The notes beneath the pieces were generated by a model. The model searched no databases and was not told the DNA's origin. It saw nothing but the letters and a program-made list of their open reading frames with translations. 64,000 nucleotides of DNA from a virus. Its lineage: Duplodnaviria; Heunggongvirae; Uroviricota; Caudoviricetes. The stretch is taken from the IMG/VR virus record IMGVR_UViG_3300026549_001031; one strand, written 5' to 3'. Positions within the stretch are counted from its first letter, which is position 1; each line of letters opens with the position of its first letter. Both the position numbers and the translations under genes were made by a program. Of the stretch, positions 18,115-42,660 are shown one piece after another.

Positions 18115-19695
18115 ATGGACAAAACAAATATGTTTGATGATGCTCTTCTAGATGATATGGACTTAGCAGATGAATTTGAGGACATGGATTTAGAGGAGGA
18201 AAGTGAAGATGATGCAGGGACAAATGAGGAGGAGTTACTAGACGACTTTGATATTGAGGATGATGAGCCACTGGCAAAGGCACTTGAGAACAGTGATGAA
18301 AGTGATACAGTATCTGAAATTGAGGAAAATGCACAGGATTATTCAGATGGTACACCTGTAGAAGATGACTTACATGAAGAAGATGAGGAAGAGACACTTC
18401 ATGAGGAATCTAGTTTTATAAGTGACACAGGTAATATTGTGGTGCAGGACACTGATGATAATGGTAATGGCTTCTCATTGGTGTATATACCTATTGAGAA
18501 TATTGCCATTACACAGAGAATTAGAAAGATTGGCTCTGTAGAGGGTTTAGTTAAGTCAATTAAAAGTACTGGACTTCTGAAACCTATTGTTGTAGCACCT
18601 ACTTTGACAGATAACCTTTATGTATTATTGGATGGCTATCAGAGAATACAGGCTTGTGCACGAGCAGGAAAAACGGTCATGCCTTGTATTGTAAACAACA
18701 GAGTAAATACACCTGAAATACCTATTTTGGAGGCTATGTACAATCACTCAAAGAAGTACTCAATTAAAGAGCAGGTTGACTACATTGATTACTTGGAGAA
18801 TCAGAAGGGTATTATGAATCCTTCAATGATTGAGTATTTGTTACAGATGAATAGTGGTGATTACACTAAGTTAAAAGATATACTTGATGATAATGACGAC
18901 GACATTGTAACTAAAATGTTTGATGGCGTATATGATATTGCAACTGCATTCAAGAAATTGGAGCAGAGGCGTAAGAAAGAATCACAGGAAGAGAAAGAAA
19001 ATAAGAAGGCAGCTAAGGTTTATGAGAATGAAGAGACCTCTGGAGCAGCTCAAATTGAGGGTTCAGGCGAGGAGGCTGAAGGAGAGGCACTCAGTGAGGA
19101 ACAGATTAAGTCATTGGCAGTAAACCTTGACAACCTGGATGATGAGGTTGAGAATGAATCCTTAAATGACATGGTTGAAAAAGACAATAACATTGAAGGA
19201 TTTGAACCTCATAAGCAAAAAACAGGTGAACGTGAGTTTATTGATCCTGCTATTAAGAAATCAGCAATGGCACGTGATAATTTCACTTGTAGATGCTGCA
19301 ATAGGGGTGGTGAGCAGTATGTAGATATTCTTGATGCACACCATGTAGTTCCTGTATTTCTTGGTGGTGTAGACAGTTTGGATAATACAGTAATGCTTTG
19401 TGTAGCTTGTCATAGACTTGTACACTTGTATTCTACAGGAGATTTGAACATTGACCCTGCTTTGAGTAAAGACAACTATGGTGAATTGACAGAGGATCAA
19501 CAGAAAAGATATGAGAACAAAGAGATTTTTGAGGATGAAAAGAGAAGATTCAAGAAGATCATTGTTTTTGGAAGTAGAATTAGACATGGCATTGCTGATA
19601 AAGGAATGAACAGAGAGAAATATAAGAAAGAGCATCCTAATACAGGAATTGGTCGTAGAAAACCTGGAGCTAAGACACCTCAAGATTATGCATAA
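18115..19695 (+). CDS. ParB/Srx-domain protein with acidic N-terminus and C-terminal HNH nuclease
   Basis: SIKSTGLLKPIVV...LLDGYQRIQA (ParB); RDNFTCRCC...HHVVP..LGGVDSLDNTVMLCVACHRLVH (HNH). Confidence 0.85.
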   Translation: MDKTNMFDDALLDDMDLADEFEDMDLEEESEDDAGTNEEELLDDFDIEDDEPLAKALENSDESDTVSEIEENAQDYSDGTPVEDDLHEEDEEETLHEESSFISDTGNIVVQDTDDNGNGFSLVYIPIENIAITQRIRKIGSVEGLVKSIKSTGLLKPIVVAPTLTDNLYVLLDGYQRIQACARAGKTVMPCIVNNRVNTPEIPILEAMYNHSKKYSIKEQVDYIDYLENQKGIMNPSMIEYLLQMNSGDYTKLKDILDDNDDDIVTKMFDGVYDIATAFKKLEQRRKKESQEEKENKKAAKVYENEETSGAAQIEGSGEEAEGEALSEEQIKSLAVNLDNLDDEVENESLNDMVEKDNNIEGFEPHKQKTGEREFIDPAIKKSAMARDNFTCRCCNRGGEQYVDILDAHHVVPVFLGGVDSLDNTVMLCVACHRLVHLYSTGDLNIDPALSKDNYGELTEDQQKRYENKEIFEDEKRRFKKIIVFGSRIRHGIADKGMNREKYKKEHPNTGIGRRKPGAKTPQDYA

Positions 19696-40885: not shown

Positions 40886-41002
40886 TTGACAGAATGGTGT
40901 TTAGATGTTAAAATAGTATTTGTAAGTGAGAGAGATATTAAAGAAAAGTTAAAAAAATAAATGAAATTGTTTATTGACTTTTCTGGAAGGAAATGGTATA
41001 AT
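40886..41002 (+). promoter_or_regulatory. Tandem SigA promoters of the RNA operon
   Basis: TTGACA(40886)-17-TAAAAT(40909) and TTGACT(40974)-17-TATAAT(40997), both with extended TG. Confidence 0.75.
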
Positions 41003-41079: not shown

Positions 41080-41152
41080 TGGGCATTCGCCAAGTGGTAA
41101 GGCACGGGATTTTGATTCCCGCATTACGTTGGTTCGAATCCGACATGCCCAG
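41080..41152 (+). tRNA. tRNA-Gln(UUG), no encoded CCA
   Basis: Acceptor TGGGCAT/ATGCCCA, D arm GCCAAGTGGTAAGGC, anticodon arm CGGGA-TTTTGAT-TCCCG, T arm GTTGG-TTCGAAT-CCGAC. Confidence 0.95.
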
Positions 41153-41227
41153 TTCCGGGGAGGGATAAACCGTTAAGACAACCTGCCTGGTATGGAACAA
41201 AGTGTTCCATTTAAAATTTATATGTTG

Positions 41228-41907
41228 CATTTTGGAAGTGATTGAGCAGGATAACGCGAGCTTTTAGCATGAACGTTGTTTGTAGCAAGGCAAATGTACA
41301 TAGTACGTTTAAGAGATCACCGACTGCATTGATTGGCGAGTTGAGGATGCAGGGCTTGACAAGGGTAGTCAAGTCGAATATGAATGGATGCGGCGTAGGA
41401 GGCGGTTGGCAATTCCGAGTTGAGGATATGCTTAGGATGCGCCTCAGCCGGTCCGTGAGATGAACTCGTGTGAACCCGCATGGGCGTGATGTAGTGACCA
41501 AGGGAGATGACATTGTTGCAGGATAACAGTGTTAGCTACATCATGTAATTAAAGCTTGGCGCAGCTATGATGCGATAAGTACATAGAGGGCAACATGAGT
41601 GACTTAGCATTAAGTCATTTAGCATTGTTGATGTGTCGTATGTGGAGAGGTAAGGCGACAAAGTTAATATCCAATACGCGTTAAGGGTATTCGCGACTAC
41701 ATTGATCTTCAACTGAGGCAGAGAGGTTTGTTGGGATTGGTTCACACAATTATGCAGGTGGGCACCATTTCGGATCATTGGTGTCATTGAAGGATAAGCC
41801 GGCATCGCAGAGGCAGGCAGGCAGTAGATGAAAGGTGCGAACTTAAGGTAGTGATCAGGTGAGTCACTAGTGTAGGTTGGAGTAATCATTGTAGATTTAA
41901 TGAAATG
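41228..41907 (+). ncRNA. Large structured ncRNA (~650-680 nt), ROOL/GOLLD-like class candidate
   Basis: GC/CpG-rich relative to flanks with no credible ORF. Closing helix 41237-41244/41883-41890; long-range GTGTGAACC/GGTTCACAC; many hairpins; directly downstream of a tRNA. Confidence 0.7.
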
Positions 41908-41923: not shown

Positions 41924-42055
41924 ATGAACAAAGAAGCAAAGATTGCATTAGCAGAGAACAGACTCGCTAATCTTCAGGGAAGTCCTAAGAACATCAAGTG
42001 TCCTGGAGTAGCACGTAAGGTAGCACGTCAGTTGCGTAACCTTAAGAGGGACTAA
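41924..42055 (+). CDS. 43-aa basic small protein (not in ORF track)
   Basis: GGAGG RBS at 41911; MNKEAKIALAENRLANLQGSPKNIKCPGVARKVARQLRNLKRD. Confidence 0.7.
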   Translation: MNKEAKIALAENRLANLQGSPKNIKCPGVARKVARQLRNLKRD

Positions 42056-42182: not shown

Positions 42183-42549
42183 GGGCTAGCTCTGGTTTCG
42201 ACAGGGGCTTGAAAGCAAAATACGACAGCAAGGGTGGATTCCCTTAACAGCCAAACAAAAATAAATGCTGACGAAAAATTAGCAATGGTTGCCTAGTTTA
42301 TTCTGGGTTTAACCCTCTTAGCTGATAGAAGCCATAGGTATTCAGTAAGAGTTAAGAACGATTGGCATTGTTGTTGATTCACAGATTCTCAGAACGCATT
42401 GACGGCATGAAAGAGTGAGATGTCTTATGTTAAATGCTTTAGGTAGCATAGTCAGTAAGAGGAAGGCTTTGACAAATACCGAGAGATTGCTGTAGTGATG
42501 TATTTGTAAGTACAGTTTTTGGATAGGGGTTCGACTCCCCTCTAGTCCA
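42183..42549 (+). ncRNA. ssrA: tmRNA; tag peptide (A)ADEKLAMVA
   Basis: 5' GGGCTAGCTCTGGTTTCGAC; acceptor GGGCTAG/CTAGTCC-A with G3:U; T arm GGGGTTCGACTCCCC; tag ORF 42267-42296 after ATAAAT. Confidence 0.93.
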
Positions 42550-42615
42550 CTGGGCACCATTCAGAGGAATGGCTGTCCTGATTTCCCAATTTTCACATTA
42601 AACTCAATCTTAAGG

Positions 42616-42660
42616 AAAAGGAGGTGCACATTATTGAAATGTGTGCCTCCTTTTTCTTTT
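42616..42660 (+). terminator. Strong terminator ending the RNA operon
   Basis: AAAAGGAGGTGCACAT...ATGTGTGCCTCCTTTTTCTTTT. Confidence 0.85.

What the first reader, a model, noticed from the sequence alone, without database searches (positions are those of the whole stretch)
41228..41907. ~650-nt ornate non-coding RNA downstream of tRNA-Gln
Seen: no credible ORF, and CpG is frequent here although rare in coding DNA. The ends pair (AGTGATTG 41237-44 / TAATCATT 41883-90). Long-range helices are GTGTGAACC 41468-76 / GGTTCACAC 41739-47, CTGCATTGATTG 41324-35 / CAATTATGCAG 41747-57 and GAGATCA 41313-19 / TGATCTT 41703-09; the last crosses the first two, implying pseudoknots. Local hairpins include GGCTTGAC/GTCAAGTC, GTGATGTAG/CTACATCAT, GACATTGTT/AACAGTGTT, AGTGACTTA/TAAGTCATT, GGCACCA/TGGTGTC and TAGTGA/TCACTA. 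Known: ROOL and GOLLD are large ornate RNAs of unknown function found beside tRNAs in Firmicutes phages and plasmids. Inference: this is a ROOL/GOLLD-like member or a new class.
Basis: partly seen in the sequence, partly recalled or inferred. Interest (0 to 1): 0.82.

Follow-up and report, generated by a model that had tools for sequence, protein, structure and literature searches.

The report
Uncatalogued giant RNA between tRNA-Gln, tmRNA
Giant mobile DNA elements of gut bacteria carry, between a tRNA gene and the ribosome-rescue RNA gene, a conserved 740-810-letter folded RNA that matches no catalogued family and probably assembles with copies of itself, as the cage-forming ROOL and GOLLD RNAs do.

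Summary
The RNA gene is real at the level of conservation. I found 31 homologous loci on gut-metagenome contigs (longest 200-465 kb, three gene neighbourhoods). Wherever the flank is held, the RNA lies right after tRNA-Gln(UUG) and upstream of tmRNA. Core identity to the window falls to about 61-66%, yet the tested helices keep 99% pairing, with 24 of 48 pairs changed on both sides. Three of its four long-range helices are replaced by covarying local ones; the fourth is ambiguous. No allele type tested hits ROOL, GOLLD, OLE or any other Rfam family, and my own model does not hit control ROOL or GOLLD loci. It is a new family. Features pointing to self-assembly are a covarying loop-loop contact and a hairpin loop that switches between two palindromes. 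Domains are swapped between elements as modules. A related element holds an unrelated 1.28-kb non-coding stretch in the same slot, and a phage has ROOL after the same tRNA. Transcription, oligomerisation and function are inferred, not shown. The scan had noted only this same locus before.

The parts
40886..40914 (+). sigma-A-type promoter-like site 1 (11/12 matches, extended -10)
   Evidence: conserved in the 450-kb-type homologs
40974..41002 (+). sigma-A-type promoter-like site 2 (11/12 matches, extended -10)
41080..41152 (+). tRNA-Gln(UUG), no encoded CCA; precedes the RNA in every homolog with the flank held
41153..41895 (+). Large structured RNA, long form (core 41230-41895); 736-810 nt in 27 full-length loci
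41155..41210 (+). Two trailer hairpins, kept in three different sequence versions
41238..41320 (+). Domain 1: helix 41238-43/41315-20 closing hairpins 41249-81 (AGCT palindrome at 41259-62 in all homologs read) and 41292-310
41324..41352 (+). Hairpin H3, 3 covarying pairs
41353..41375 (+). Hairpin H4; its loop 41363-66 pairs with the H6 loop
41384..41456 (+). H5, enlarged in the window's allele type (predicted fold only)
41465..41484 (+). Hairpin H6; loop 41474-77 is the partner of the H4 loop (GGGT/ACCC here, TGAT/ATCA in types B and C)
41489..41565 (+). Most conserved module: helix H7 41489-94/41536-41 (4 covarying pairs), invariant motif 41496-509, hairpin H8 41508-34, nearly invariant motif 41554-65; putative pseudoknot 41498-502/41555-59 (invariant, so untestable by covariation)
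41597..41660 (+). Hairpins H10 (41597-620) and H11 (41634-60; 4 of 5 pairs covary)
41666..41691 (+). Hairpin H12 (5 of 7 pairs covary); loop palindrome ACGCGT at 41676-81, GCGCGC in types B and C
41697..41894 (+). 3' multibranch domain, closed by 41697-714/41875-94; contains hairpins 41761-85 and 41849-69
41924..42055 (+). 43-aa ORF; present only in the 450-kb-type elements; homologs lie in phage tRNA clusters; no Pfam or PHROG family
42183..42552 (+). tmRNA (tag ADEKLAMVA)
42612..42658 (+). 21-bp perfect hairpin followed by a T run: likely terminator of the unit
32833..33285 (+). smpB, the protein partner of tmRNA, on the same element

Best explanation
A stand-alone large ornate non-coding RNA of a new family, carried by giant extrachromosomal elements of gut bacteria, probably Clostridia. 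Shown: conserved position between tRNA-Gln and tmRNA, conserved total length, covarying helices, a covarying H4-H6 loop-loop contact, a palindromic H12 loop, and modular allele exchange. Inferred: it is co-transcribed from the tandem promoters with the tRNA and tmRNA. Its 5' end is freed when RNase Z cuts behind the CCA-less tRNA; in compact loci its 3' end is freed when RNase P cuts the tmRNA leader. It folds as a chain of domains and self-assembles through kissing loops into an RNA-only homo-oligomer like ROOL or GOLLD. Most speculative: the assembly serves the element's translation-support kit (tRNA, tmRNA, SmpB, IF3) as a scaffold or cage. I put a real functional RNA at about 0.85, homo-oligomerisation at about 0.5 and the translation-linked role at about 0.3.
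For: 31 homologous loci, all in the same slot where the flank is held. 5' half: 36 pairs, 99.0% of cells paired, 15 pairs changed on both sides; slid controls 34-44%. H11 and H12: 99.5%, 9 of 12 pairs. Core identity 61-66% while non-coding flanks are 92-95% identical in the same element type. Length is held at 736-810 nt although modules differ in size. The H4-H6 loop contact switches GGGT/ACCC to TGAT/ATCA; chance is about 0.8% after allowing for 45 loop pairs. The H12 loop is a 6-nt palindrome in all 32 sequences, in two versions; chance is 3-9% per version. Kretsch et al. (PMC12286853) use the same signature, palindrome-to-palindrome switching in loops, as support for intermolecular bridges in OLE and GOLLD. 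A bona fide ROOL (313 bits) follows tRNA-Gln(UUG) in phage locus L001. RNase Z cuts CCA-less tRNA precursors behind the discriminator (PMC8549757).
Against: Folding z-score of the window allele is only -1.4. The loop-loop and palindrome switches each rest on essentially one evolutionary event (type A against B/C), and counts over related sequences overstate independent support. The H4-H6 contact could be intramolecular. The ACGCGT loop is 12 nt long and may be structured otherwise. The family was not found in IMG/VR, GTDB genomes, PLSDB or INPHARED, so phylogenetic depth is small. No helix joining the two ends was found, unlike ROOL.
Confidence: 0.5

Rival explanations
1. A real structured RNA that works as a monomer or as a ribonucleoprotein (ribozyme or protein scaffold) around the invariant module 41496-41565; the loop contacts are intramolecular.
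For: 26 nearly invariant nucleotides in an otherwise variable RNA; a pseudoknot-like arrangement; a conserved basic 43-aa ORF follows in one element type.
Against: No known ribozyme or RNP family matches. The 43-aa ORF is absent from the 260-kb elements. A self-complementary hairpin loop cannot pair within itself, which favours an intermolecular contact.
Confidence: 0.2
2. A structured spacer or processing scaffold of the tRNA-tmRNA transcript, a mosaic of hairpin cassettes with no life as an independent RNA.
For: Always between two processed RNAs, and no promoter of its own found. Weak overall folding z-score. Modules are exchangeable. An earlier scan note on another genome reads a tRNA-tmRNA operon this way (e1-5625511).
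Against: 740 nt with invariant internal motifs, a covarying tertiary contact and constant total length exceed what processing needs. No conserved helix to the tRNA leader or tmRNA flanks was seen (flanks differ between element types).
Confidence: 0.12
3. A very divergent ROOL or GOLLD member beyond the reach of the Rfam models.
For: Same size class and tRNA context; ROOL follows the same tRNA-Gln in L001; ROOL has few invariant nucleotides (PMC5737381).
Against: No hit at E<=5-10 for allele types A, B and C, while controls score 313 and 165 bits. My model R1 gives nothing on the control ROOL or GOLLD with filters off. The window has 0 of 9 ROOL and 0 of 7 GOLLD hallmark motifs. The helix order differs: no end-closing P1.
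Confidence: 0.08
4. A tRNA-Gln-binding RNA. The invariant CAA-G would read the UUG anticodon loop and the invariant UGGC would pair with the NCCA end, as in a T-box; or CTTGGCG would pair with tRNA positions 9-15.
For: Invariant linkage to tRNA-Gln(UUG); a 7-nt exact complement to the D arm; CAA is the cognate codon.
Against: The discriminator is G in 20 loci and A in 9, while UGGC does not change. A 7-nt match is expected at a few percent by my estimate. The two motifs pair with each other. No T-box hit in Rfam.
Confidence: 0.1

Closest known systems
ROOL RNA (Rfam RF03087)
   Same: About 600-700 nt, many helices, few invariant bases, loop-loop pairing, next to tRNAs on phages and mobile elements; found right after tRNA-Gln(UUG) in L001, a phage locus that shares the 43-aa ORF.
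   Different: No model or sequence match in either direction; hallmark motifs absent; no helix closing the two ends; a chain of independent, swappable domains; tied to tmRNA.
GOLLD RNA (Rfam RF02032)
   Same: About 800 nt, tRNA-adjacent, variable 5' part, self-complementary kissing loops.
   Different: No match to the GOLLD 3'-domain model or motifs. Here the conserved core is central and the 3' domain is the most variable (6 types).
OLE RNA (Rfam RF01071, accession from memory)
   Same: About 600 nt, Firmicutes; dimerises partly through a loop that switches between palindromes (PMC12286853).
   Different: No Rfam hit. OLE is tied to protein partners such as OapA, whereas this RNA sits between tRNA and tmRNA on mobile elements.
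HIV-1 dimer initiation site (from my own knowledge)
   Same: A GCGCGC palindrome in a purine-flanked hairpin loop, with alternative palindromes between subtypes.
   Different: Unrelated system; only the motif is analogous.

Membership tests
ROOL | Match to covariance model RF03087 (gathering 99.1 bits) | tested here: not met
   No hit at E<=5-10 for types A, B, C; control L001 scores 313 bits
ROOL | Conserved sequence motifs of the consensus | tested here: not met
   0 of 9 in the window; at most two 5-6-mers in other alleles; 9 of 9 in the control
ROOL | P1 helix joining the 5' and 3' ends, nested multistem junctions | tested here: not met
   The end helix has no covariation; both strands are used by local covarying helices
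ROOL | Location near tRNAs on phages or mobile elements | tested here: met
ROOL | Homo-oligomeric nanocage | not testable with these tools
   Only indirect: palindromic and covarying loops
GOLLD | Match to the conserved 3'-domain model RF02032 (gathering 150 bits) | tested here: not met
   No hit; control L146 scores 165 bits; R1 and nhmmer negative on the control
GOLLD | Hallmark motifs of the 3' domain | tested here: not met
   0 of 7 in the window; only GGGAA in other alleles
OLE | Rfam model match | tested here: not met
Group I/II intron, RNase P, other Rfam ribozymes | Rfam model match | tested here: not met
T-box riboswitch | UGGN bulge covarying with the tRNA discriminator; Rfam match | tested here: not met
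   UGGC stays invariant while the discriminator is G or A; no Rfam hit
Large ornate ncRNA (as a kind) | Over 500 nt, ORF-free, many covarying helices, pseudoknot or kissing contacts | tested here: met
Large ornate ncRNA (as a kind) | Expressed as an abundant discrete RNA | not tested

The most novel reading that the evidence does not exclude
Giant gut elements keep a dedicated slot between tRNA-Gln and tmRNA for interchangeable giant RNAs. This family is a further class of self-assembling RNA cage, beside ROOL and GOLLD. Its domains are shuffled by recombination, and its allele-specific kissing loops (ACGCGT against GCGCGC; GGGT/ACCC against TGAT/ATCA) restrict assembly to like alleles, giving RNA-level self-recognition between co-resident elements.
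Probability: 0.22. Interest if true: 0.88.

Novelty: new variant of a known kind. Interest (0 to 1): 0.7.

Why it matters
Few bacterial RNAs of this size and complexity are known, and the function of the cage-forming ones (ROOL, GOLLD) is an open question. This family adds an apparently unrelated example. It comes with natural domain swaps, a natural deletion of a 5' module, and natural palindrome switches, which are ready-made constructs for testing assembly rules. Its constant linkage to tRNA-Gln, tmRNA and (in the window) SmpB and IF3 gives a concrete lead that such RNAs serve translation stress on large mobile elements. Different giant non-coding stretches in the same genomic slot suggest a shared role.

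Tried and rejected
Rfam on the window and on types A, B, C: only tRNA and tmRNA. BLASTN in phages and plasmids: nothing. Four DNA patterns in IMG/VR: zero hits, or 101 hits of which the 80 returned were chance matches in unrelated, mostly coding sequence. L025 (a JGI contig with 44% GC and a transposase-like ORF) matches the pattern but is chance: about 1 match expected, 7.8 bits. HDV/theta-ribozyme reading of the tRNA trailer and of the H7 module: rejected by eye (nested hairpins; no P1.1 or catalytic C) and no Rfam hit. The 1.28-kb stretch in L161 is not detectably homologous. The motifs are not in the held parts of the ROOL/GOLLD alignments or the first 200 supplements of Fremin and Bhatt 2021; both searches are incomplete. 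In one search four of my own helix coordinates were off by one; they are corrected.

Full report
Observation. The stretch holds no credible ORF. It lies between tRNA-Gln(UUG) at 41080-41152 and a 43-aa ORF at 41924-42055, followed by a tmRNA at 42183-42552. Two near-consensus extended -10 promoters precede the tRNA, and a 21-bp hairpin with a T run follows the tmRNA at 42612-42658. Folding energy alone is unconvincing (z -1.4), so the case had to come from homologs.

The replicon. All long genes are on the + strand. They include gyrase/topoisomerase subunits, SmpB, a Clp-type ATPase, an NlpC/P60 protein, IF3, and DnaB-like and ParB-like proteins. Contigs carrying the same genes reach 446-465 kb. 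This fits a giant extrachromosomal element of gut bacteria, probably Clostridia (inference from gene content and GC). Plasmid against phage is not settled; an earlier scan note of a conjugation-like cluster upstream (e1-5676480) was not tested here.

Homologs. Neighbouring proteins gave ten loci of the same element type. In several, the non-coding flanks are 92-95% identical to the window but the RNA core only 61-66%. A gapped pattern built from two short islands shared by these alleles returned 22 metagenome loci; 21 are true homologs and one is chance. They fall in three gene neighbourhoods, on contigs up to about 465, 265 and 241 kb. Wherever the flank is held, tRNA-Gln(UUG) ends 340-366 nt before the motif and a tmRNA follows. 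In most 260-kb elements the tmRNA starts within about 50 nt of the RNA's end and the 43-aa ORF is absent. Nothing was found in IMG/VR, GTDB, PLSDB or INPHARED.

Structure. On 20 distinct sequences of the 5' half, six helices (36 pairs) are paired in 99.0% of cells and 15 pairs change on both sides; slid controls give 34-44%. RNAalifold finds four of these helices independently. H11 and H12 give 99.5% and 9 of 12 pairs. Frequent G-U alternatives fix the strand as +. The 3' domain is closed by 41697-714/41875-94, with compensatory changes between types A and B; type C has a corresponding long helix. The fourth, 41468-76/41739-47, remains possible but competes with hairpin H6. The RNA is therefore a chain of separately closed domains, not one circle closed by its ends. 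Caveat: the sequences are related mosaics, so cell counts overstate independent events. Much of the signal is the A against B/C split, though H1, H3, H11 and H12 also covary within B/C.

Tertiary signals. The loops of H4 and H6 are complementary in both major types with different sequences (GGGT/ACCC against TGAT/ATCA); chance is about 0.8% after allowing for 45 loop pairs. The H12 loop holds a 6-nt palindrome in all 32 sequences, ACGCGT in type A and GCGCGC in types B and C. An AGCT palindrome is kept in the otherwise variable H2. Two nearly invariant motifs (41496-509 and 41554-65) can form a 5-bp pseudoknot across H7, which covariation cannot test. In OLE and GOLLD, switching between palindromes in a loop marks intermolecular bridges seen by cryo-EM (PMC12286853). 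That is the basis for inferring homo-oligomerisation here.

Modularity. Eight segments each occur in 2-6 types, in many combinations, yet total length stays at 736-810 nt. The window's type lacks a two-hairpin 5' module of about 70 nt found in the others, keeping only a remnant, and has a larger H5. Recombinants such as L008 keep both strands of the 3' closing helix of one type. The same modules occur on unrelated elements, so the RNA is exchanged, plausibly by recombination anchored in the conserved tRNA and tmRNA (inference).

Comparison with known families. Rfam 15 gives no hit for types A, B or C at E up to 5-10, while a ROOL control scores 313 bits and a GOLLD control 165 bits. My model of the central part scores the window at 181 bits and finds nothing in either control with filters off. 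nhmmer and hallmark-motif checks agree. It is not a member of ROOL, GOLLD or OLE. It may still work like them: phage locus L001, found through the shared 43-aa ORF, has ROOL right after tRNA-Gln(UUG). A syntenic sister element has an unrelated 1.28-kb non-coding stretch between tRNA-Gln(UUG) and tmRNA. Literature searches found no description of this family, but the library and supplements are incomplete.

Mechanism. Most likely the unit is transcribed from the tandem promoters to the terminator. RNase Z cutting behind the CCA-less tRNA (PMC8549757) would create the RNA's 5' end at 41153, and RNase P at the tmRNA leader (established knowledge) would free the 3' end in compact loci. The released RNA folds into domains and assembles with its own copies through kissing loops, as a scaffold or cage in the element's translation-support kit. 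Position, conservation and secondary structure are shown. Rivals are a monomeric ribozyme or RNP (0.2), a processing spacer (0.12), a tRNA-Gln binder (0.1; weakened because the invariant UGGC does not follow the G/A discriminator change) and a remote ROOL/GOLLD member (0.08).

Verdict. A real, apparently uncatalogued family of large ornate RNAs: a new variant of a known kind, interest 0.7.

Noticed in passing
L161:5850-7127 (also L158-L168): A syntenic 215-247 kb element has a 1.28-kb ORF-free stretch with internal repeats between tRNA-Gln(UUG) and tmRNA; no Rfam hit and no detectable homology to the window's RNA. Candidate second giant RNA.
   Followed up: partly
L158:18557-18890 and 19232-19598: Two unusual tRNA-like genes, each followed by a copy of a related ~250-nt non-coding element; no Rfam family above threshold.
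   Followed up: no
L001:2774-3424: Bona fide ROOL (313 bits) after tRNA-Gln(UUG) in a 190-kb phage that also encodes a tRNA with a UUA (stop-reading) anticodon at 2351-2423.
   Followed up: partly
window:41924-42055: Basic 43-aa ORF with about 100 short relatives among 50%-identity clusters; the phage copies examined lie in or near tRNA clusters; no Pfam or PHROG family. One relative sits in a TAG=Q recoded contig (L153).
   Followed up: partly
L002:3270-3472, L003:3290-3546, L008:5140-5396: A 200-260 nt insertion just before tmRNA in some alleles, absent from the window; L008's copy contains hairpin-like segments.
   Followed up: no
window:5045-33285: Element-borne housekeeping set out of chromosomal context: gyrase/topoisomerase B and A, DnaB-like, ParB-like with HNH, IF3, SmpB.
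   Followed up: partly
window:26702-30231: VWA/metallopeptidase (DUF2201) gene next to a MoxR-like AAA gene; the pair is conserved in related elements (L155, L157).
   Followed up: no
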